This document shows, in pieces, positions 4,245 through 63,398 of a DNA stretch of 64,000 bases (position 1 is its first letter; each line of letters begins with the position of its first letter). This stretch comes from Escherichia phage vB_EcoM-RPN242, in the sequence record OL656110.1; one strand, 5' to 3'. The notes under the pieces were generated by a model. That model searched no databases. It was given only the letters and a program-made list of their open reading frames with translations, and was not told where the DNA came from. Position numbers and translations under genes: made by a program.

Positions 4245-5081
4245 CTACACAGCTTTCGCTTCAGCCAGAGCCTGTGGAAGCCATTCATTGATCGCCTTAA
4301 CCAGAGACTCAGCATCAGACTCTTTGATCTTCTGACGTTTGGTGAAGGACTTACCGTTCACGTACAGACTGAAGCCCCAGCCACCGGAAACGATAGGCGC
4401 AACGTCGACATACGTATTGGTGCGGGCGTGAAGGTTTTCAGGGTTAGCCAGTTCGGTGACCGGGAACTGGAACCAACGCATGTCTGGGTTCACGTAGCTC
4501 AGGAACACGCCGGGAACAACACCAGCTTCAATCGCCGCCAAGACCGGACCGTGATTAGAAGCGCGAGCCAAGTCAACCATTTCCTCACGTTTGGTGTGAC
4601 GGCGTTTACGCTCTACCAGCGCCGCCTGCGGGGTCAGGGTCTTACCCTTCGATGCTTCTTTCAACATAGAAGACGCCAAGGAACCGATTTTCGCGTCGGA
4701 CGGCTGATTGCCTTCTTCCAGCGCCGCGTTGACTGCATCTTCAACCGCGTCTACCGGGGCGTCGGACACTGGGGCTTCACATGCATCGGCAGAGATCGGT
4801 GCTTCAGCATCAATGGTTTCAGCGACTTTCAGCGATACTTCAGCTTGGGCTTGCTCTTGGGCTTGCGCCAGAGCCTGCTGAGTTTCTTCCTTCTCTTCGG
4901 CGCTCAGACCTTCAATCAGTTCGAAGCCGTTGGCAGCCTGAAGAACACCTTCAACCATACGGCGCAGGGTAACGTTTCCGATGATCAGACCTGCTTCTTT
5001 GATTTCAGCCTGAATAGCAGCAACGTCTTTGCCTTCAATTTCAATTTTGGTTCCAGAATCCACATGAAGAATATATGACAT
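4245..5081 (-). CDS. hypothetical protein with acidic Ala/Glu/Gln-rich low-complexity centre
   Basis: 278 aa complete ORF with ATG start; segment EEKEETQQALAQAQEQAQAEV. Confidence 0.6.
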   Translation of the reverse strand: MSYILHVDSGTKIEIEGKDVAAIQAEIKEAGLIIGNVTLRRMVEGVLQAANGFELIEGLSAEEKEETQQALAQAQEQAQAEVSLKVAETIDAEAPISADACEAPVSDAPVDAVEDAVNAALEEGNQPSDAKIGSLASSMLKEASKGKTLTPQAALVERKRRHTKREEMVDLARASNHGPVLAAIEAGVVPGVFLSYVNPDMRWFQFPVTELANPENLHARTNTYVDVAPIVSGGWGFSLYVNGKSFTKRQKIKESDAESLVKAINEWLPQALAEAKAV

Positions 5082-8106: not shown

Positions 8107-9129
8107 TCAGTTAGACTTGAGATACTGCTCGAATTCGTCAATGGAAGCCGTGTTTCTGGCATTCGGTTGAGACTGAGACTGAGACTGAGCCTGCGACGGC
8201 GCGGCCTGTTGCTGTTTCAGGCTGTCTTGAGCAGTTGGCTGATGTGTAGTCTGGGTGCTAGGAGCATGAGCCATCGTGGCTGCACCACCTTCAACCAGAG
8301 GCTGGTCATCAGGGATTGCCAGAACTTTGCGCAGGCGCTTTTCCAGGGAGTCGTAGTCTTTGAAGTTAGCCGGATTGAAGAATTCAAACAGGCTGTGCTC
8401 GCGAGACCAGACGTCTTCCATATACGCTTCGTCATCACTCAGCGGGGCAGGGTTCTCCCACACCACCTTACTGAAGTTTGCCACCAGACCTTCCCAGTTC
8501 CCAAACTTCTTCTGCTCGCCAAAGAGCTTCAGGTTCAGGTTGGCACCTTCCCACAGATCGAACGGATCGAATTTAGGGTCGGTTGGGAACTTAGGATTCT
8601 GCGCCTGATCCAGGATTTTCTTGATGGCGTTACCAAATTCCAGCAGGAAGACCTTGCCGTTGTTTTCCGGTACGTTGACATCTTTGATCACCAGGATGTT
8701 AGCGTAGTATTTGGTGTCGGGTAGACGTTTCTTCAGGATGTCCTTCAGCTTTTCGTCGTTCGTTTCTTTCTGCTGCGCCCACAGCGGACGGTCATGGTCG
8801 CGCACCGGATCGTCGTTGCCGAACGTCTGAGGTGAGTTCTCAATGTACCAACCACCAGGACCCTGGAACTGATGTTTCATGATCATGGCACAAGGGGTGA
8901 GGATCTGATCTTTATCGATCGTCCCTTCTTCCTGTGCCTTGAGGTCTACCAGCGGGACTGGCAGGAAGCGGATGATGTTCTCTGAGATACCATCTTTGTT
9001 CCAAGTCCATTTCCAGATGCGAGGATCCTTCTGGAAACCGGACTTCTGGCCTTGCTGTGCAAGACGCGCCTGCATAGCTTCAGTTTGCTGGCCACGGGAT
9101 GCTTTCAGACGATCGAATAAATTACCCAT
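8107..9129 (-). CDS. 32: single-stranded DNA-binding protein (T4 gp32-like)
   Basis: 340 aa; IRFLPVP, YYANILVIKDVNVPENNGKVFLLEFG and DLWEGANLNLKL match gp32 core motifs; Q/S-rich acidic C-terminal tail. Confidence 0.85.
   Translation of the reverse strand: MGNLFDRLKASRGQQTEAMQARLAQQGQKSGFQKDPRIWKWTWNKDGISENIIRFLPVPLVDLKAQEEGTIDKDQILTPCAMIMKHQFQGPGGWYIENSPQTFGNDDPVRDHDRPLWAQQKETNDEKLKDILKKRLPDTKYYANILVIKDVNVPENNGKVFLLEFGNAIKKILDQAQNPKFPTDPKFDPFDLWEGANLNLKLFGEQKKFGNWEGLVANFSKVVWENPAPLSDDEAYMEDVWSREHSLFEFFNPANFKDYDSLEKRLRKVLAIPDDQPLVEGGAATMAHAPSTQTTHQPTAQDSLKQQQAAPSQAQSQSQSQPNARNTASIDEFEQYLKSN
8168..8190. repeat. tandem hexanucleotide repeat (tgagac x ~3.8)
   Basis: Encodes the SQSQSQSQ low-complexity stretch in the gp32-like C-terminus. 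Confidence 0.6.
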
Positions 9130-12921: not shown

Positions 12922-13218
12922 GGCTTAACTGTAAAATCGGTTAACACGAACTTTCTTTACCTGAAATTGCTATAATGGGCTTGTTCCCGAGTCATTTGTT
13001 GGTGTTTGTCTGTTTTGAATCAGATTGTCAGTAAAATACCATTTTTCAAGGAGTGTTCTGGGGTGTACAGTTATTGCCTCGCCCTTATGCCTCCATGGCA
13101 TTGGAATGGTGCTGCCCGCATAGGGCGGTTTGATGAGCGAAGCGAATAGGATCGAATAAAACAAATAAAATGAACGGAAGCAGAGCTTCCTATAGTATAT
13201 AAGGCAAAATCAGCTGCG

Positions 13219-13260: not shown

Positions 13261-14871
13261 ATGTTAGACAATATGAGATGGTTTTACGGCACCGTTGAAG
13301 ATGTCAACGATCCAGACCAAAATGGGCGAGTTGCTGTTCGCATATATGGCGTACACACCGACGATCCCGTCCTCCTGCCTACGGACAAACTCCCATGGGC
13401 GAAGGTACTGATGCCTGCTTCAAATGCCTCCTCTGCTGGTTTAGGTTGGTCTCCAACGGGTATCATTCCTGGTACTGAGGTTATGGGGTTCGCCCTTGAC
13501 GAAGCATACCAGAATTTACGCATCACCTGGACTTGGACTGGTTCAAGCCCTACTGATGGTGCCGACACAAACCCACTGGCTCTCGGGCAGGTCGTTCAAT
13601 CTGTAGAACGTCAGGCGTACAACGCTGTCACTGACGTTCCTGTGAAACAAGAAGACGAACCACAACCAGATCCACAACCACCTGTTGGTGGGTATGATCC
13701 AGAGAAGTGGATGACAATCGCTCGTGGCGAATTGGGTATCAAGGAGTACGCCGGAAAGTTCAACAACAACCCGCGCATTATAGAATATCACAAGACAACC
13801 TCCCTTGGTGCTTCTGAAGATGAAGTGTCGTGGTGTGCGGCGTTCGTGGGTTGGGTTATGATACAGGCTGGATACACGTCTACACGCTCCGCTCTTGCCC
13901 GATCTTACCTTACATGGGGCACTCCACTGTCAGCACCACAATATGGCGCTATCGTAGTCTTCCGGCGTGGTAACAACCCTACATTTGGACACGTAGCGTT
14001 TGTGCAGAAGTTCGATGCAAACTATGTCTGGTGTATTGGTGGCAACCAATCCGATTCAGTGAAGGTCAGTCGTTTCAGACGTTCTTCGGTCTTGGGATAT
14101 CGTTGGCCTGGTCCTGCTAACACAGCCACAGCCGCGCCTGCGCAGCAGAATGGTAAATGGTCAGAACCTATCCCAGATCGTACTCCAAAGGAACAACCGA
14201 CTCCGGCTCCTACTGGGCGAGTACAGGATATTGACAACACTGGAGAGACCATGGTTCCGGCTGCGGGTGGCTCCAAATACCCGTACAATAACGTCATGGT
14301 GTCCCGAGCTGGGCATATTATGGAAGTGGATGACACCCCTGGTGGTGAACGTCTTCACTGGATGCATAAGTCTGGGTCTTACAAGCAAATGTTGCCGGAT
14401 GGTGATGTGGTCAACAAGTCCGTCAAAGACCACTATGACCTGACGATGTTCAACAAGCGTTATTATGTCGGCGGGGACCACAACCTGACGGTCAAAGGAA
14501 CTGAAGTTCAGCGCAAGACAGGTGAGGTCTATCATTTGCATTCCAACAACTACTCAAATGTGGTTGCGGGCACAGCGCTGATGAAATTCAGTGACCTAGC
14601 GGAAATGCAAGCGCAGAATATTCTGCGCATTATCTGCGAGACTCTGGAGGTCGGTGGGACATTGAAGGTTCCTAAGATTCTAACGACTGAGATAATCGCT
14701 GACAAACTGACTGTCGCTCAGACGATCAATGGTAACATCATATATGCCGAAGGTGCTGGTCGCGCTTCTTCTCTGTCAGGTGCAACCCCTGCATCCCCTA
14801 CGGGTCCGGGTGAGATTGACATCAAGGCAGAATTAAAAGACAATGGTGGTAATTTCGGCACCAAAGAGTAA
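13261..14871 (+). CDS. baseplate central spike protein (gp5/VgrG-like OB-fold N-terminus) with embedded CHAP-type cysteine peptidase domain
   Basis: 536 aa; N-terminal NGRVAVRIYGVHTDDPVLLPTDKLPWAKV; CHAP-like SWCAAFVGWVM ... GHVAFV; Gly/Val-rich C-terminal region. Confidence 0.7.
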   Translation: MLDNMRWFYGTVEDVNDPDQNGRVAVRIYGVHTDDPVLLPTDKLPWAKVLMPASNASSAGLGWSPTGIIPGTEVMGFALDEAYQNLRITWTWTGSSPTDGADTNPLALGQVVQSVERQAYNAVTDVPVKQEDEPQPDPQPPVGGYDPEKWMTIARGELGIKEYAGKFNNNPRIIEYHKTTSLGASEDEVSWCAAFVGWVMIQAGYTSTRSALARSYLTWGTPLSAPQYGAIVVFRRGNNPTFGHVAFVQKFDANYVWCIGGNQSDSVKVSRFRRSSVLGYRWPGPANTATAAPAQQNGKWSEPIPDRTPKEQPTPAPTGRVQDIDNTGETMVPAAGGSKYPYNNVMVSRAGHIMEVDDTPGGERLHWMHKSGSYKQMLPDGDVVNKSVKDHYDLTMFNKRYYVGGDHNLTVKGTEVQRKTGEVYHLHSNNYSNVVAGTALMKFSDLAEMQAQNILRIICETLEVGGTLKVPKILTTEIIADKLTVAQTINGNIIYAEGAGRASSLSGATPASPTGPGEIDIKAELKDNGGNFGTKE

Positions 14872-15677: not shown

Positions 15678-16139
15678 CTACTCCGCCAGGGTGATCACAA
15701 CCATATTTAAGACTGTGTCGATAGCTCGGCCTGTTTCCTCTTCATGGAGGGTTTCGGCGCGGAGGTGCACGTCGGTGATGAAATTGTCGATGTGCATTGA
15801 AGTCAGATACGGGCGGTGTTGACTGACCGGGCGGTTGACCAGAACATAATTGCGCAATGTGTTGAAGTCCTGATGAGAGCACCCCGTTGTATCGATACGA
15901 AGGAAGCGTTCGTTGTGGCTTGTCTTCAGTTCAGTTACCTTGCCGAGGTAGACCAGAGGTCCATTGCGACCGATACGGAACATAACATCAACAACAGACT
16001 TGAAGATTTCGCGTTCAATTAGTGCGGTGGGTGACCAGCAGATCTCTTCTTTGTCATCGGCGTACAGGGTGTCGATCACCAGAGGGAGTTGAATGTAACC
16101 GAAGTTGTGCATTGGGTTGGTGAGTACTTTGTTTGTCAT
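15678..16139 (-). CDS. hypothetical protein (153 aa)
   Basis: ATG start with GGGAACTATATC leader; downstream of promoter cassette D. Confidence 0.55.
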   Translation of the reverse strand: MTNKVLTNPMHNFGYIQLPLVIDTLYADDKEEICWSPTALIEREIFKSVVDVMFRIGRNGPLVYLGKVTELKTSHNERFLRIDTTGCSHQDFNTLRNYVLVNRPVSQHRPYLTSMHIDNFITDVHLRAETLHEEETGRAIDTVLNMVVITLAE

Positions 16140-16244
16140 GATATAGTTCCCGCTTTCAATTTGTGGCGAATGCCAATGAATTACTGGGAAGTATAAGCGC
16201 AGGGATTATAGAAGTAAAGCCCCTCAATGAGGGGCTTTGGCTTG
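16140..16244 (-). promoter_or_regulatory. intergenic cassette D: hairpin terminator + TTTACT-N17-TATACT promoter + conserved leader
   Basis: Hairpin agcccctc-aat-gaggggct (16218..16236); minus-strand -35 TTTACT (16213..16218), 17-nt spacer, -10 TATACT (16190..16195); leader ends GGGAACTATATCATG; homologous to cassettes at 29252, 50853 and 63197. Confidence 0.5.
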
Positions 16245-22705: not shown

Positions 22706-23194
22706 TTAGGCCAGTTTGCTCACCAGAGCTTCAACTGCGTCGGCGCTCAGTTTACCCATTTTGACGTACTGAGCTTTTGCTTCACCACCAGCCGCTTTCA
22801 CGATGTCGGTGTTGTCGTACCCCTTCTTAGGGAATACCATCACAGAGAAGGAACCGTTGTTCAGCGGGTTCAGCTGGATGCGACCTTTACCGACTACGAT
22901 GGTGCCGTAAGTTTCGGTGTTTGCTTCGACAATGTGGATGTCGTGACCCAGGTTTTTCAGCATACCAACTTTGTCGGCAGTCTTAGCAACCACAGCTTTG
23001 TCAACCACAACCTGCTCTACCAGGGTGAAGCCGTTAGTCGATTTCACTTTACCGTTCAGCAGGTTCATGAAGGAAGTTTTGCCACCAGTGAAGCCAGCCG
23101 CCTGAGCGATGCGGAACATTTCAACTTTAGCAACTTCGGTGTTCAGTTCGAAAGAGATGGTGCCGTTGGTGATCAGAGTTTTGGTAGTAGCCAT
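22706..23194 (-). CDS. hypothetical protein (162 aa), probably highly expressed
   Basis: Start at ATG 23194 with GAGGAATTACATC leader; flanked by a terminator downstream and an AT-rich structured upstream region. Confidence 0.6.
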   Translation of the reverse strand: MATTKTLITNGTISFELNTEVAKVEMFRIAQAAGFTGGKTSFMNLLNGKVKSTNGFTLVEQVVVDKAVVAKTADKVGMLKNLGHDIHIVEANTETYGTIVVGKGRIQLNPLNNGSFSVMVFPKKGYDNTDIVKAAGGEAKAQYVKMGKLSADAVEALVSKLA

Positions 23195-23340
23195 GATGTA
23201 ATTCCTCATAATGTAGTTGGTTCATTTCACTTTTCATTCGGCGGTGTGTTGCCGCCCTATGTGAACTATAATAGTGCATCATTATTGAAGAGTAAAGTCT
23301 TTTTCAATAATTTTTTAAAATATTTTTGAAGTATTTTAAA

Positions 23341-28915: not shown

Positions 28916-29251
28916 TTATTTTTGAACTTGGGCTACAGACATCGCCCAGAGCGGGAGGGTGTGGGGGTCCAGGGCTTCCAGTAGATATTCGACGCGCTCT
29001 GACATGATACCTTCAGGGAAGTTTACTTCTTCTGGTTCGTTGTTGGCCGTCCAACCCAAGGTCAGTCCTTCAGCGTGATGGATGATATAAACGAAGTCGC
29101 CCGATTCGTAGTCCTTTTCCATCAGGGAGAAGAAATCTTCCATTTCTTCGTCGGAGAAGTAGTAGATGCGAGGTACGGAGCCGTCAGCAAAGTGCTCAGC
29201 ACCCTGGAAGGCAAACATGTCATCGGCGGTGAAGTTCTTGAGTTGTGTCAT
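28916..29251 (-). CDS. hypothetical acidic protein (111 aa)
   Basis: First ATG at 29251 (MTQLKNF...) with AGGAACTATATC leader; track start is TTG. Confidence 0.5.
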   Translation of the reverse strand: MTQLKNFTADDMFAFQGAEHFADGSVPRIYYFSDEEMEDFFSLMEKDYESGDFVYIIHHAEGLTLGWTANNEPEEVNFPEGIMSERVEYLLEALDPHTLPLWAMSVAQVQK

Positions 29252-29357
29252 GATATAGTTCCTGCTATTCAAGTTGGTGTCGTACTGCTTATGGAATGAA
29301 GTATAGGGAAGGATATTGAAGAAGTAAAGGGGCGAAAGCCCCTTTTATTGAATTATT
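29252..29357 (-). promoter_or_regulatory. intergenic cassette A: hairpin terminator + TTTACT-N17-TATACT promoter + conserved leader
   Basis: Hairpin ggggc-gaaa-gcccc (29329..29342); minus-strand -35 TTTACT (29323..29328), 17-nt spacer, -10 TATACT (29300..29305); 20-nt block 29286..29305 identical to 63331..63350. Confidence 0.5.
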
Positions 29358-29996
29358 TTACGGCGTCGGATTCACAACCGGAATGTGGGATCGAATACCT
29401 GCGATGATGTCCTTCAGCTGAGGCTTCCATCCATCCACCAAACGGGGTAGAGCGATAGCACCAGGCTGAACTAAAATGATGTCGCTGCCTGTGATATTGT
29501 GCTGAGGGAACTGGGCAAGGTACTGCTCCATGGTGACACCCTCATCAATCAGAACCGCACCGACGTCAGACGATGCGTAGGTTGCACCCAGACCGTCAAC
29601 ACCCCACGCCAAAATACCCCAGTCAGGGATGTTGGCTTCAGATGTGATAGTGAATCCAAACACGGTGTTCAGTGATGTAAAGGAGTAGACATCGTGGGTG
29701 ATGTCATACACCAGATACCCCTTGGTCAGCATATCGGCAAAGATCGCGTCCGTATCGCCAGCAGTCGGAGTCGGTACAGTAAACAACAGCTCGCCATCAG
29801 GAGGAGCAGGGTATGTGCTGAGGGCATAGAGGCACCATGCGTCAATACACTTCTTGATAAATGCCTCCGGTGCGACATAATCAGCAAGGCGAACCGTACC
29901 TGAGTACTCGGATACGATGATGCCTTCCTTCGCACCCTGTAGAGCAATGAAGACCAAGATATGTTCATATCCGGCCTGAGATGGAGTGATGTTCAT
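29358..29996 (-). CDS. hypothetical protein (212 aa)
   Basis: Start at ATG 29996 (MNITPSQ...), overlapping the upstream stop. Confidence 0.55.
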   Translation of the reverse strand: MNITPSQAGYEHILVFIALQGAKEGIIVSEYSGTVRLADYVAPEAFIKKCIDAWCLYALSTYPAPPDGELLFTVPTPTAGDTDAIFADMLTKGYLVYDITHDVYSFTSLNTVFGFTITSEANIPDWGILAWGVDGLGATYASSDVGAVLIDEGVTMEQYLAQFPQHNITGSDIILVQPGAIALPRLVDGWKPQLKDIIAGIRSHIPVVNPTP

Positions 29997-30610
29997 TATC
30001 TTGTCCTCTTCAGTTTCTCTATTGTGTGCTTGTTCATGGTGATCACCTGAGGATCTACCTCGGAGATGGTCCGGCCTTCGAAGGACACACATTTCTGAAG
30101 ATATTTAGCTTTCTTCACGACGTCGGCAGCATAAGCGTTCGATGCAGGATTACGGGCGAAGCCAGCATTGTAAGAGGAGAGGGATTTGCGGATATTCTGA
30201 TTGTGATAGGTCAGCCAGAACTGCATCTCATCGAGGGCGGCTTGCGCGGCATATTCTTGGTCGGTCAGCAACTTTATAGCGACATTGGCATAGCACTTGC
30301 GATTCTTACAACCTTCGCGATCACCAACTGTCTTCACCTTGTTCTGAAAGGCTCCCATGTTGGCCGCCTTGAGGTCGTATCGCATTGACACTACATCTTC
30401 ACCAGCGCGGCTCTCTCGCCAAGATATGGCGGCCAGAGTGTAGCCAAGATCTTGTGTCTTGCCTACGTGATAGGCGGTTGCCAGCGTATTAAGTTGTTGC
30501 TCGGAGAAATTATAATCGCATTGGGTGGTACTTTGGGAAGCGTGCACATTCCCGCTGGCAATGGTAAAGGTCACGGACAAGGCCATGGCCTTCAACGTTG
30601 TCATCGTCAT
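29996..30610 (-). CDS. secreted SLT-domain protein (lytic transglycosylase-like) with signal peptide
   Basis: 204 aa; N-terminal signal-like MTMTTLKAMALSVTFTIASGNVHA; SLT motifs LAAISWRESRAGED (catalytic ES) and SSYNAGF. Confidence 0.6.
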   Translation of the reverse strand: MTMTTLKAMALSVTFTIASGNVHASQSTTQCDYNFSEQQLNTLATAYHVGKTQDLGYTLAAISWRESRAGEDVVSMRYDLKAANMGAFQNKVKTVGDREGCKNRKCYANVAIKLLTDQEYAAQAALDEMQFWLTYHNQNIRKSLSSYNAGFARNPASNAYAADVVKKAKYLQKCVSFEGRTISEVDPQVITMNKHTIEKLKRTR

Positions 30611-43436: not shown

Positions 43437-43807
43437 AACGTACCCCCGACAGAGATCAAGAACTCTTCTTGCATGGTCTTGACCGGGTGGTGGTTGCGGG
43501 TTTCGAACATGAAGCCCCAGCCACCGTCGGCGACGTTGCCAAAGGTCTTGACGCCAAAGGACTTCGTCCCGTTAGAGCAGGAATAGATGTCCAGGACGTA
43601 TGGGCTACCCTGATTGTCGATCCCACGATTCACGTCGTCTGATACGCAGCGCTCAATCATCTTCCCGTTCTTATACAGAACGAGGTCTTGGCCATACGCC
43701 TTGAAAGCATAAACACCGTTGGTAGACACTCCGGTGATGACAGGAGGGGCGGAAACAGCAGCAAAGGAAGCGCCCAGCAGAGCAACAGCGAGGATTAACT
43801 TTTTCAT
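43433..43807 (-). CDS. secreted hypothetical protein
   Basis: Start at ATG 43807 (MKKLILAVALLGASFAAVSA...) with AGAGACTATATC leader. Confidence 0.55.
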   Translation of the reverse strand: MKKLILAVALLGASFAAVSAPPVITGVSTNGVYAFKAYGQDLVLYKNGKMIERCVSDDVNRGIDNQGSPYVLDIYSCSNGTKSFGVKTFGNVADGGWGFMFETRNHHPVKTMQEEFLISVGGTL

Positions 43808-43866: not shown

Positions 43867-44106
43867 TTAACTGATGTGCTTCAGAAGAGCGAAGAGGATC
43901 GCGGCCTTGGCCTTTACCTTTCCCACGATGCCTGTCTCGACATCAACTTCTTCAGCAACCCACTCTTTGCCTTTCTTGCTGATGATCACGTCACGGCGCT
44001 GTGCGTAGACTTCTTTGGTCGCATACACACGACGGAACCCTTTAGCGCGGAGCAATCCCCAATTACGATCAATTTCTACTGAGGTTTCTACCATTTTGTT
44101 CTTCAT
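43867..44106 (-). CDS. hypothetical protein (79 aa)
   Basis: Complete ORF with ATG start. Confidence 0.45.
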   Translation of the reverse strand: MKNKMVETSVEIDRNWGLLRAKGFRRVYATKEVYAQRRDVIISKKGKEWVAEEVDVETGIVGKVKAKAAILFALLKHIS

Positions 44107-44189
44107 GATATAATCTTACCTTTCAACCCGGTGAACCCATCGTTCGCCAGTTATTGAATAATAGGACATTCCTTAGAGGAAGTAAACCC

Positions 44190-44223
44190 CTAAAAGTAAA
44201 AATCCCCAACGTTTGTTGGGGAC
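44190..44223 (-). terminator. rho-independent terminator
   Basis: tccccaac-gttt-gttgggga hairpin (44203..44222) followed on minus strand by TTTTTACTTTTA. Confidence 0.7.
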
Positions 44224-56767: not shown

Positions 56768-56900
56768 TTGTATGTATCCTCAAAATATAGTGGGGGTTCA
56801 AGTCATGTTTGACGCAATCTAGTATCGCTGTGTTTTGTTTATAGAACAAGTGGCAAATTGCGCTACGCGTTATTAATAAATGCCTTCGGCATTTATGGAC

Positions 56901-56947
56901 TTTATTAAAGATAATAACCTTTATTAAAGATAATAATCTTTATTAAT
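56901..56947. repeat. tandem palindromic iterons (TTTATTAAAGATAATAA x2 plus partial third copy)
   Basis: Copies at 56901..56917 and 56920..56936 are identical, 19-bp period; each unit is TTATTA-aaga-TAATAA; lies in a 361-bp AT-rich region between divergent genes. Confidence 0.7.
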
Positions 56948-56979
56948 CCTATTCGCTTCGCTCATAAAACAAATACTCG

Positions 56980-57009
56980 TTGTTCGCTAACGCTCACAAC
57001 TCGTATAAT
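56980..57009 (+). promoter_or_regulatory. sigma70-like promoter candidate for plus-strand gene
   Basis: TTGTTC - 18 nt - TATAAT (57004..57009), about 120 nt upstream of ATG at 57129. Confidence 0.35.
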
Positions 57010-57128
57010 ACCACGCCATTGTTCAACAAGAAAGCAGTTTTTATTCAACAGCAAAATTAATTTATTTGGTCTAAACATGCACGCGAAATAATATGTATGT
57101 CATGTTAACCAACACACGAGAGTAATAT

Positions 57129-57500
57129 ATGAAACAGTTCGTAGGTTTATACGCAGTCGGGTGTAGTAAGCCAGACGCCAACCTCACCACAGGTCAATTT
57201 ATCACAGGCACCCCAGTTTATCTGACACAGCTGGCGTCAGACAAGAACTTACCATCGGAACCGCGATTTGTCCCCCTTGGCTTGATGACAGGCCTGAAAG
57301 TTGGTCTGTATGTCGGCGTTGTGACGTTTGAAAACGGCATCGAAGCGAAGGTTCTGCCATTCAAATTGGGTAGTGAACAAATGCTGAAGGATACGATCAG
57401 TGAACACCTGAACTCACAATGTCTGGCTTCTCTGGATAAATTGTTCGGCGTAGTATCTGATGAAGGCGAGGCCACCCCCGCCTATGTGAATCAAGATTAA
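57129..57500 (+). CDS. hypothetical protein (123 aa)
   Basis: Complete plus-strand ORF with ATG start; convergent with uvsW (overlapping stops). Confidence 0.5.
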   Translation: MKQFVGLYAVGCSKPDANLTTGQFITGTPVYLTQLASDKNLPSEPRFVPLGLMTGLKVGLYVGVVTFENGIEAKVLPFKLGSEQMLKDTISEHLNSQCLASLDKLFGVVSDEGEATPAYVNQD

Positions 57501-62875: not shown

Positions 62876-63196
62876 TCACAGCGCCCCAAGATTGCCGATT
62901 ACGTACAGGGAGCACAGAGGAGTACCTGACGAACGAGGTTCGATCGTCATCCCGCTCAGGCGGATCAGTTCCAGTAAGCCGTCAGTGGTCTGATACGCGC
63001 GTGTCGAACCGTTCGGTCGATATAGCTCCAGCTCAGTTCGCCCTTCCTTTATTGCATTTCGAATGCGAGTGAACACACTGTGGTCGCCGAACTTCTGTTT
63101 CAGAAGATCCAGCTTGGTGGTCAGGCGGCGACGTGGTTTGCGCGCACGAGGGTTCTCTTTTACGACCGCTTCTAAAATCGGGATGCTGTTAGCCAT
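62876..63196 (-). CDS. hypothetical protein (106 aa)
   Basis: Complete ORF with ATG start and AGAGGA RBS. Confidence 0.5.
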   Translation of the reverse strand: MANSIPILEAVVKENPRARKPRRRLTTKLDLLKQKFGDHSVFTRIRNAIKEGRTELELYRPNGSTRAYQTTDGLLELIRLSGMTIEPRSSGTPLCSLYVIGNLGAL

Positions 63197-63398
63197 GATA
63201 AAGTCCTCTATTTGTAGGGGATAGGGTATGCGGTTAACATACCCTGTTCAAAGGTTTAGAACAAATTGCTGCAATGTTACTTTGTAACGAGAGTGGTGAT
63301 AGTTCCTTCATTTCAGAGTCAGTGTTGTGCTGCTTATGGAATGAAGTATACGGGGTTTATTGAAGAATTAAACCCCGTATATTGAATAAATTTAAAAT
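63197..63398 (-). promoter_or_regulatory. intergenic cassette B: TTTAAT-N16-TATACT promoter + conserved leader
   Basis: Minus-strand -10 TATACT (63345..63350) and -35 TTTAAT (63367..63372); 20-nt block 63331..63350 identical to 29286..29305; leader contains ATGAAGGAACTATCACC and a hairpin before the 63196 start. Confidence 0.45.

What the first reader, a model, noticed from the sequence alone, without database searches (positions are those of the whole stretch)
63331..63350. Identical 20-nt block at two loci 34 kb apart
TGCTTATGGAATGAAGTATA occurs at 29286..29305 and at 63331..63350, with near-identical flanks (GT..GTGC upstream; ATTGAAGAA and AAA downstream). On the coding strand it spans the putative -10 and the first transcribed nucleotides. 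Exact conservation beyond the -10 hexamer suggests selection on the initial transcribed or leader sequence, or a recent duplication or recombination hotspot.
Basis: seen in the sequence. Interest (0 to 1): 0.5.

Follow-up and report, generated by a model that had tools for sequence, protein, structure and literature searches.

The report
Conserved phage promoter-leader cassette repeat
The repeated 20-base block is the core of a roughly 85-110-base terminator, early-promoter and leader cassette present several times in this Ackermannviridae phage genome; it is almost invariant across the phage family and marks spots where small genes of unknown function are swapped in and out.

Summary
The exact match is 21 nt (29285-29305 and 63330-63350), and no shuffle gave two hits. 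Similarity extends over about 110 nt. The window is an Agtrevirus-like Ackermannviridae phage with these genes on the minus strand. Read on that strand, each copy has an AT-rich tract, a GGGG...CCCC hairpin, a -35 (TTTACT, or TTTAAT at site B), a 16-17 nt spacer, a -10 (TATACT), a leader (CATAAGCAGYACRACAC...) and AGGAACTATATCATG. The flanking genes are unrelated, so this is not a gene duplication. It is not recent either: both loci carry the cassette across four genera. The 78-nt site-B cassette averages 95.6% identity against 75.7% for the adjacent gene. The gene starting at the cassette's ATG differs between relatives, with at least 4 unrelated families at site B and 5 at site A. Insertion and deletion junctions fall inside the cassette's SD-ATG part. 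In the window, site B retains only a decayed remnant of its gene. A full relative genome holds five strong members plus weaker and half copies. This matches the promoter-early stem-loop (PeSL) cassettes of T4-type phages, which I did not find reported for Ackermannviridae. Promoter activity and recombination are inferred, not shown.

The parts
29285..29305 (-). Site A copy of the exact 21-nt repeat (minus strand TATACTTCATTCCATAAGCAG): -10 hexamer plus discriminator plus predicted first transcribed bases
29326..29345 (-). Site A GC-rich hairpin AAAGGGGC-TTTC-GCCCCTTT. It is a probable intrinsic terminator of upstream gene 29358-30092, and its 3' arm overlaps the -35
   Evidence: -13.5 kcal/mol, z -4.0. 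The homologous position is annotated as a terminator in LIMEstone1. The U-tract is below the scan threshold on the minus strand
29346..29356 (-). Site A AT-rich upstream tract (ATAATTCAATA), containing the first TTCAATA copy
29323..29328 (-). Site A -35 hexamer TTTACT
   Evidence: TTTACT-17-TATACT, 9 of 12
29300..29305 (-). Site A -10 hexamer TATACT
29252..29292 (-). Site A predicted 5' UTR (ATAAGCAGTACGACACCAACTTGAATAGCAGGAACTATATC), with SD AGGAA at 29259-29263; predicted to be unstructured
   Evidence: MFE -2.6, z +0.9
28916..29251 (-). Site A cargo gene (111 aa, MTQLKNFTADD..., phrog_9866, unknown function)
63330..63350 (-). Site B copy of the exact 21-nt repeat
63347..63381 (-). Site B 13-bp hairpin UAUACGGGGUUUA-(9 nt loop)-UAAACCCCGUAUA. 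It encloses the -35 and spacer and abuts the -10
   Evidence: -17.5 kcal/mol, z -6.0; not called a terminator by the consensus scan
63367..63372 (-). Site B -35 position. It reads TTTAAT in this window and in LHE287, and TTTACT in all other relatives examined
63345..63350 (-). Site B -10 hexamer TATACT (16-nt spacer)
63300..63337 (-). Site B predicted 5' UTR, with SD AGGAA at 63303-63307; the original ATG is deleted in this window
63260..63299 (-). Decayed remnant of the site-B cargo gene (LIMEstone1 ORF133 homologue). About 51 nt including the start codon are lost at a junction flanked by ACTAT, and 191 nt are lost at a junction flanked by ATTTGTT
   Evidence: same state in LHE287
63224..63244 (-). 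Hairpin GGGTATGTTAACCGCATACCC, retained from the 3' end of the lost cargo gene unit
62876..63196 (-). First intact gene now downstream of the site-B promoter (106 aa, phrog_4663, unknown function)
16133..16240 (-). Third, more diverged family member in the window: hairpin AAAGCCCCTCATTGAGGGGCTTT, TTTACT-17-TATACT, and GGGAACTATATCATG starting gene 15678-16139
23190..23300 (-). Weak family member (TTATTGAA-N-TTTACTCTTCAATAA...TATTAT ... AGGAATTACATCATG)
44102..44191 (-). Weak family member (GGGGTTTACTTCC...; nhmmer E 0.13 in the window, 8e-4 for the LHE287 counterpart)

Best explanation
The 20-mer is the -10 hexamer, discriminator and first transcribed bases of a composite regulatory cassette. 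Read on the minus strand, the cassette consists of an AT-rich tract, a GGGG...CCCC stem-loop (terminator of the preceding gene), a host sigma-70-type early promoter (TTTACT, 16-17 nt spacer containing TCTTCAATA, TATACT), a roughly 45-nt unstructured leader (CATAAGCAGYACRACAC...TTGAA..) and a fixed translation-initiation region (AAGGAACTATATCATG). Shown: the cassette occurs at about 4 fixed loci in Ackermannviridae genomes and is kept almost invariant across genera. It serves as a transcriptionally insulated expression slot for small ORFan genes. Inferred: because the copies share 20-80 nt of near-identity, and partial SD-ATG 'half cassettes' sit before neighbouring genes, homologous or short-homology recombination inside the cassette deletes, inserts or replaces the cargo gene. 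In this window, site A has lost one cargo gene present in relatives, and site B keeps the cassette with only a gene remnant. This works like the PeSL (promoter-early stem-loop) cassettes of T4-type phages.
For: The anatomy is as described. The flanking proteins of the two loci are unrelated, so only the non-coding cassette is repeated. The 96-nt site-B cassette hits 278 phage records, all Ackermannviridae-type, mostly at 95-100% identity and usually in 2-3 places per record. The 78-nt cassette has a mean pairwise identity of 95.6%, against 75.7% for the adjacent 237-nt gene; for LIMEstone1 versus Marshall the figures are 100% and 68.9%. In 16 IMG/VR locus-B sequences, 71 of 82 cassette columns are invariant, and conservation drops sharply at the ATG. 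The family in the complete LHE287 genome comprises 5 strong nhmmer hits (E 2e-25 to 2e-17), weaker ones, and half cassettes. The motifs are enriched in the window relative to shuffles. The cargo differs behind the same cassette: 4 unrelated families at locus B and 5 at locus A, all in different PHROGs of unknown function. Junctions lie inside the cassette. A221 has an extra gene at site A bounded by the repeated AGGAACTATATCATGA. MK-13 has an extra gene at site B followed by a half cassette. In L068, the locus-D cassette is fused to the next gene. Cargo family F3 sits behind cassettes at locus C and, in two Kuttervirus contigs, at locus A, with two different crossover points in the leader. Leader and spacer variants are shared mosaically between loci; for example, CECAV_050 site B carries site-A-type bases. 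LIMEstone1 curators independently annotated promoters at both positions and a terminator at the site-A position. The architecture matches the published PeSL description: AT-rich tract, GGGG..CCCC stem-loop, TTTACW-N17-TAYWAT, then SD and ATG at the 3' end (PMC4122927, PMC2839356).
Against: No transcription start, promoter-strength or termination data exist for any of these phages in the searched literature. Site B in this window has a weakened -35 (TTTAAT) and fails the consensus promoter scan. Neither hairpin passes the consensus terminator scan on the minus strand. There are only about 5 strong copies per genome, against the many PeSLs in RB49/phi1. Invariance of the leader could reflect a direct function (see rivals) rather than, or as well as, recombination. 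The recombination events are inferred from comparisons, not observed. The site-B gene decay in the window used chance microhomologies (ACTAT, ATTTGTT), with only the 5' ACTAT lying in the cassette's SD-ATG region.
Confidence: 0.72

Rival explanations
1. The cassette is only a strong early promoter plus an optimised 5' UTR, held constant by purifying selection on expression. The variable genes downstream reflect ordinary hyperplastic-region turnover, and the cassette plays no causal role in recombination.
For: The cassette is extremely conserved, with sharp boundaries at the hairpin and the ATG. The leader is unstructured and has a good SD with 7-nt spacing. The site-B gene decay in the window used chance microhomologies: ACTAT (whose 5' copy is the end of the cassette's GGAACTAT) and ATTTGTT inside the gene.
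Against: Three independent indels have both ends in cassette or half-cassette TIR sequence. The same cargo family lies behind cassettes at two different loci, with two different junctions inside the leader. Spacer and leader variants are shared mosaically among loci.
Confidence: 0.18
2. The invariant spacer (TCTTCAATAA, with a second TTCAATAA nearby in direct or inverted orientation) or the invariant leader (CATAAGCAGYACRAC, GGAACTATATCATG) is a recognition site for a dedicated factor. Candidates are a phage early-gene repressor or activator, a RegA-type translational repressor (a regA homologue is encoded in the genome), or a nuclease or recombinase. The repeat would then reflect a shared operator.
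For: Positions that a sigma-70 promoter does not constrain (spacer, +1 to +40) are invariant across genera. The TTCAATAA motif is paired in every cassette. regA and putative regB homologues are annotated in relatives. Ackermannviridae early and middle regulation is unexplained and they lack MotA/AsiA (PMC3184105).
Against: No factor is identified and there is no GGAG RegB site. At site B the spacer is also constrained by being the 3' arm of the hairpin. There is no Rfam match or significant RNA structure in the leader. Locus D has a different leader behind the same promoter core.
Confidence: 0.08
3. The repeat is a chance match, or a recent local duplication without function.
For: There are only two exact copies in the window.
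Against: 0 of 100 shuffles reach two hits. Both loci carry the cassette in four genera, and the cassette is more conserved than neighbouring coding DNA.
Confidence: 0.01
4. Read on the plus strand, TGCTTA is a T4-type MotA box of a middle promoter firing antisense.
For: The plus strand reads TGCTTATGG. LIMEstone1 curators labelled the site-A position 'putative middle promoter'.
Against: No TAnnnT -10 lies 11-13 nt downstream on the plus strand (the sequence is TATAGG / TATACG). No plus-strand gene follows. ViI-like phages have no MotA or AsiA (PMC3184105). The LIMEstone1 annotation is on the gene strand, not the antisense strand.
Confidence: 0.01

Closest known systems
PeSLs (promoter-early stem-loop cassettes) of T4-type phages RB49/phi1, T4/PST and KVP40/nt-1 (Arbiol et al. 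2010, PMC2839356; Comeau et al. 2014, PMC4122927)
   Same: Both are composite units with an AT-rich tract, a stem-loop (often GGGG...CCCC) and a sigma-70-like early promoter, with the SD and start codon at the 3' end. The T4/PST consensus is TTTACW-N17-TAYWAT; here it is TTTACT-N16/17-TATACT. Both occur in several copies per genome. Both sit next to ORFan insertions, deletions and replacements between close relatives. In both, crossovers map between the -10 and the ATG, and degraded 'half' elements are present.
   Different: The host phage family is Ackermannviridae, not Straboviridae. There are far fewer copies (about 5 strong per 150 kb). Conservation is much higher and the conserved unit is longer: about 80 nt including the whole 5' UTR is nearly invariant across genera. 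At site B the stem-loop encloses the -35 and spacer rather than lying upstream of the promoter. Mini-circles and promoter or terminator activity have not been shown here.
T4 early promoters (Liebig and Rueger 1989; Hinton 2010, PMC2988021)
   Same: Both use host sigma-70 recognition with a TTTAC-type -35, an A/T-rich upstream region and strong conservation beyond the hexamers.
   Different: Here the spacer and the transcribed leader are also conserved. These phages lack Alt/ModA/MotA/AsiA (PMC3184105).
Morons of lambdoid phages (promoter-gene-terminator units inserted between conserved genes)
   Same: Both are autonomous transcription units carrying accessory ORFs. The locus-C copy sits between the tail sheath and tail tube genes in LHE287.
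   Different: Morons do not share a common conserved promoter-leader sequence that could serve as recombination homology.
Integron gene-cassette platforms (by analogy only)
   Same: Both have a fixed promoter-bearing slot with exchangeable promoterless cargo.
   Different: No integrase or attC-like sites were identified. Exchange here is presumed to use general homologous or microhomology recombination.

Membership tests
PeSL (promoter-early stem-loop) cassette | Stem-loop adjacent to or just upstream of the promoter, typically GGGG...CCCC | tested here: met
   Site A has AAAGGGGC-TTTC-GCCCCTTT (z -4.0) and site B has a 13-bp stem with GGGG/CCCC (z -6.0). At site B the stem encloses the -35 rather than preceding it.
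PeSL (promoter-early stem-loop) cassette | Sigma-70-like -35/-10 with about 17-nt spacing (T4/PST type TTTACW-N17-TAYWAT) | tested here: met
   Site A has TTTACT-17-TATACT. Site B has TTTACT-16-TATACT in relatives; in this window the -35 is TTTAAT and fails the scan threshold.
PeSL (promoter-early stem-loop) cassette | AT-rich region upstream, with the Shine-Dalgarno and start codon of the downstream gene at the 3' end | tested here: met
   Present at site A and in relatives at site B. In the window the site-B ATG has been deleted.
PeSL (promoter-early stem-loop) cassette | Multiple related copies per genome | tested here: met
   There are 5 strong, several weak and several half copies in the LHE287 genome, and 3-4 promoter-core matches per complete IMG/VR genome. 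This is fewer than reported for RB49/phi1.
PeSL (promoter-early stem-loop) cassette | Association with ORFan indels or replacements between close relatives, with junctions inside the element | tested here: met
   No genome-wide enrichment statistic was computed.
PeSL (promoter-early stem-loop) cassette | Demonstrated promoter and terminator activity, and mini-circle formation by PeSL-PeSL recombination | not testable with these tools
   This requires reporter assays, transcript mapping and inverse PCR on infected cells.
Intrinsic (rho-independent) terminator | GC-rich stem followed by a U-tract | tested here: inconclusive
   The stems are strong, but the tails (UUUACUUCUUC and UAUACUUCAUU) fall below the scan's T-run threshold on the minus strand. 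LIMEstone1 annotates the site-A homologue as a terminator.
T4 MotA-dependent middle promoter | MotA box (TGCTT) at -30 with a TAnnnT -10, and phage MotA/AsiA | tested here: not met
   The plus-strand TGCTTA lacks a proper -10 and a downstream gene. ViI-like phages lack MotA/AsiA (PMC3184105).
Known structured RNA family (Rfam) | Match to a covariance model at the gathering score | tested here: not met
   There were no gathering-level hits in the whole window and only sub-threshold noise at both sites.

The most novel reading that the evidence does not exclude
The near-absolute invariance of about 80 nt, including spacer and 5' UTR positions that a sigma-70 promoter does not constrain, could reflect a dedicated recognition system. 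This would be a phage-encoded factor (regulator, nuclease or recombinase) that reads the cassette. The four fixed cassette loci would then form an integron-like gene-capture and expression platform for immediate-early ORFans (possibly host-takeover or anti-defence genes) in a family of virulent phages, rather than a passive by-product of homologous recombination.
Probability: 0.1. Interest if true: 0.75.

Novelty: new member of a known kind. Interest (0 to 1): 0.4.

Why it matters
Early transcription signals of Ackermannviridae (ViI-like phages used in biocontrol and therapy) are poorly defined. Kutter et al. 2011 reported being unable to identify early promoters by informatics. This cassette family gives a concrete, testable early-promoter and leader consensus. 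It identifies about four fixed 'slots' where accessory ORFans are exchanged between genera. It also extends the PeSL model of modular shuffling beyond T4-type phages. In practical terms, the slots are natural insertion sites with a built-in strong promoter and ribosome-binding site for engineering reporter or payload phages. Their cargo genes are candidates for host-takeover or anti-defence functions.

Tried and rejected
- **Gene duplication:** rejected. All-against-all BLASTP of the flanking and cargo proteins shows the two loci share no protein similarity.
- **Structured RNA or riboswitch:** rejected. There was no Rfam hit. The site-A leader folds no better than shuffles (z +0.9). A possible CUUCAUU/AAUGAAG pairing in the site-B leader is absent at site A and would mostly lie upstream of the predicted start.
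- **Plus-strand MotA-box promoter:** rejected, as set out under the rivals.
- **Rearrangement between the two direct repeats:** the window is collinear with LHE287 at both ends sampled, so there is no evidence for it.
- **MAFFT alignment of the site-B remnant against intact relatives:** this misplaced the gaps. The junctions were defined by exact-segment matching instead.
- **Literature:** searches for transcriptomics or TSS data on Ackermannviridae found nothing relevant. No paper links PeSL with Ackermannviridae, and the longer motifs were not seen among the top-ranked text hits. The 2012 Viunalikevirus genus paper (Arch Virol) is not held, so prior description of a promoter consensus there cannot be excluded.
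- **Function of cargo genes:** Pfam and PHROGs gave none.
- **Unrelated pattern hits:** fifteen of the 69 IMG/VR pattern hits were unrelated AT-rich or coding matches in other phages and were set aside.

Full report
**Observation**

The 20-mer TGCTTATGGAATGAAGTATA is present exactly at 29286-29305 and 63331-63350 on the plus strand. There are no further hits at up to 3 mismatches, and 0 of 100 dinucleotide-preserving shuffles gave two matches. The exact match is 21 nt (29285-29305 / 63330-63350) and is the longest direct exact repeat in the window. An alignment of 200 nt around each copy shows that similarity extends over about 110 nt, with 75% identical columns.

**Context**

The window is 97-99% identical to Escherichia phages A221, LHE287 and YX22 and related to Shigella phage Ag3. 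These are Agtrevirus-like members of the Ackermannviridae (ViI-like phages). The window corresponds to about 48.0-112.0 kb of LHE287. Genes around both copies are on the minus strand.

**Anatomy on the coding strand**

Site A reads as follows:
- an AT-rich tract, ATAATTCAATA (29356-29346);
- a hairpin, AAAGGGGC-TTTC-GCCCCTTT (29345-29326; -13.5 kcal/mol, z -4.0);
- TTTACT (29328-29323), a 17-nt spacer TCTTCAATATCCTTCCC, and TATACT (29305-29300), the only sigma-70-type match in that kilobase;
- a roughly 41-nt predicted leader, ATAAGCAGTACGACACCAACTTGAATAGCAGGAACTATATC, which is unstructured (z +0.9);
- the ATG of a 111-aa gene (28916-29251).

Site B has the same order, but its 13-bp hairpin (63381-63347; -17.5 kcal/mol, z -6.0) encloses the -35 and spacer and abuts the -10 at 63350-63345. 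In this window and in LHE287, the site-B -35 reads TTTAAT rather than the TTTACT of all other relatives. It therefore fails the consensus scan.

**Not a gene duplication, and not recent**

The proteins flanking the two sites show no similarity to each other, so only the non-coding unit is repeated.

A 96-nt site-B query finds 278 phage records, essentially all Ackermannviridae (Kuttervirus, Agtrevirus, Limestonevirus, Taipeivirus). Most match at 95-100% identity, with usually 2-3 places per record. A site-A query behaves likewise.

Across seven genomes from four genera, the 78-nt site-B cassette averages 95.6% pairwise identity, against 75.7% for the adjacent conserved 237-nt gene. For LIMEstone1 versus Marshall the figures are 100% and 68.9%.

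In 16 further locus-B sequences from IMG/VR, 71 of 82 cassette columns are invariant. The major-allele frequency is 0.97 in the cassette, 0.83 in the upstream gene and 0.60 after the ATG. The conserved block has sharp edges at the hairpin and at the start codon.

**A family, not a pair**

An nhmmer profile finds five strong members in the complete LHE287 genome (L005-L007; E 2e-25 to 2e-17):
- sites A and B;
- a copy upstream of window gene 15678-16139 (window 16133-16240);
- a copy between the tail sheath and tail tube genes (LHE287 about 121.2 kb);
- a copy near 4.7 kb.

It also finds weaker members (window about 23.2-23.3 kb, 44.1-44.2 kb and 50.9 kb). In addition there are 'half cassettes' that retain only TTTGAA..GAAGGAACTATATCATG.

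The consensus is [AT-rich tract / GGGG..CCCC hairpin] TTTACTTCTTCAATAA N7-9 TATAMTTC N5 CATAAGCAGYACRACAC.. TTGAAA.GAAGGAACTATATCATG. Both core motifs are enriched in the window relative to shuffles.

The curators of LIMEstone1 independently annotated the site-B position as a putative early promoter. They annotated the site-A position as a terminator plus putative middle promoter (PMC3296691).

**Variable cargo**

Behind the near-identical site-B cassette, the gene starting at the cassette's ATG differs:
- ORF133-like (MTTKAQL) in LIMEstone1 and CECAV_050;
- an additional MARSIHDF gene in MK-13;
- MTTAKVTIY / MNTPKISI-type genes in Kuttervirus;
- MNN(M/T)PTTK genes in Taipeivirus and some others.

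These form four families with no BLASTP similarity to one another. Locus A has five unrelated families. The eight cargo families tested fall in eight different PHROGs of unknown function, and none has a Pfam domain.

**Junctions lie in the cassette**

- A221 carries an extra 91-aa gene at site A bounded by the repeated AGGAACTATATCATGA. The window and LIMEstone1 lack it, while KN2-1 has both genes.
- MK-13's extra gene at site B is followed by a hairpin and a half cassette.
- In contig L068, the locus-D cassette is fused directly to the next gene through the same TIR motif.
- Cargo family F3 lies behind the cassette at locus C in Agtrevirus-like genomes. In two Kuttervirus contigs it lies at locus A. 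One of these has a locus-C-type 3' leader and the other a locus-A-type leader up to the ATG, so there are two different crossover points inside the cassette.
- Spacer/-10 and leader variants are shared mosaically between loci. CECAV_050, whose neighbouring gene is 97.5% identical to the window's, carries two adjacent site-A-type bases in its site-B leader. This suggests conversion between copies.

**State of the window**

At site A, the window has the short form, with the cassette running directly into the MTQLKNF gene.

At site B, the cargo gene is reduced to a 40-nt remnant (63299-63260). About 51 nt including the start codon are lost at a junction flanked by ACTAT. A further 191 nt are lost at a junction flanked by ATTTGTT. 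LHE287 is in the same state. The promoter would now read through the remnant and a retained hairpin (63244-63224) into gene 62876-63196.

**Mechanism**

Shown: the sequence architecture, the conservation, the family membership, the cargo diversity and the junction positions.

Inferred: that the unit is an active host-RNA-polymerase early promoter with an efficient leader and an upstream terminator, and that recombination within it drives cargo exchange.

The conservation of spacer and leader beyond promoter requirements has three possible causes. It may reflect selection on expression. It may reflect the dual use of the spacer as a hairpin arm at site B. It may reflect homogenisation by recombination. 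A dedicated binding factor cannot be excluded. The TTCAATAA motif is paired in every cassette, and regA and regB homologues exist, but nothing tested here points to a specific factor.

**Comparison with known systems**

The architecture and behaviour match the PeSLs described in T4-type phages. Those have an AT-rich tract, a stem-loop often of the form GGGG...CCCC, a sigma-70-like promoter (T4/PST consensus TTTACW-N17-TAYWAT), and the SD and ATG at the 3' end. They are associated with ORFan indels, with crossovers mapped between the -10 and the ATG, and degraded half elements occur (PMC2839356; PMC4122927).

The differences are as follows:
- the phage family is different;
- there are few copies per genome;
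- the near-invariant unit is much longer and includes the 5' UTR;
- the hairpin at site B is embedded in the promoter.

Kutter et al. reported that ViI-like phages lack MotA/AsiA and that early promoters could not be identified by informatics (PMC3184105). No paper in the searchable library links PeSLs to Ackermannviridae, and the longer motifs were not seen among the top-ranked text hits.

**Verdict**

This is a real, functional-looking, ancient and strongly conserved regulatory cassette family. It is a new member of a known kind (PeSL-like). Interest is moderate. It is useful for understanding early transcription and accessory-gene turnover in Ackermannviridae, and as natural engineering slots. 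It is not categorically new, and it lacks experimental support.

Noticed in passing
window 56860-57130: This is a divergent intergenic region. It contains a hairpin AATAAATGCCTTCGGCATTTAT and about 2.6 tandem copies of a 19-nt AT-rich unit, CTTTATTAAAGATAATAA(C/T), at 56900, 56919 and 56938. It also has a TATAAT-containing stretch. It looks iteron-like or regulatory.
   Followed up: partly
window 13133-13152 (+) and 56946-56965 (-): This is an exact 20-nt inverted repeat, ATGAGCGAAGCGAATAGGAT, 43 kb apart. It is as long as the finding's repeat. One copy lies upstream of the gp5-like baseplate hub gene (13261-14871) and the other lies next to the 19-nt tandem repeats. Both copies are followed by AT-rich ..AATAAA.. 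sequence. Its function is unknown.
   Followed up: partly
window 16134-16150 and 29246-29262: A 17-nt exact repeat, TGTCATGATATAGTTCC (minus strand GGAACTATATCATGACA), is the shared translation-initiation region of two cassette members. The same TIR, with 1-3 mismatches, precedes genes at 23192, 40450 and 43805 as 'half cassettes'.
   Followed up: yes
LHE287 (L007) about 120.8-121.3 kb, outside the window: A cassette copy and a small ORFan (MTKTEINAI family), plus a second small ORF just upstream, are inserted between the tail tube (gp19-like) and tail sheath (gp18-like) genes. This is an early-promoter, moron-like unit inside a late structural block.
   Followed up: partly
window 63260-63305: After the decay of the cargo gene, a 25-codon ORF (MKELSPLSLQSNIAAICSKPLNRVC) is opened from an ATG inside the old leader. 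It is probably fortuitous.
   Followed up: no
window 8168-8189: A hexamer tandem repeat (TGAGAC x3) lies inside the single-stranded DNA-binding protein gene (8107-9129).
   Followed up: no
window 4370-4386 and 43510-43526: A 17-nt exact direct repeat, TGAAGCCCCAGCCACCG, occurs 39 kb apart within coding regions. It was not examined.
   Followed up: no
IMG/VR loci L062 and L067 (contig of 128.5 kb): The same promoter core (TTTACTTCTTCAATAATCCGCGTATAAT) sits upstream of a gene in a contig that does not look like the standard 155-160 kb Ackermannviridae genomes. This may be a more distant lineage using the same promoter type.
   Followed up: no
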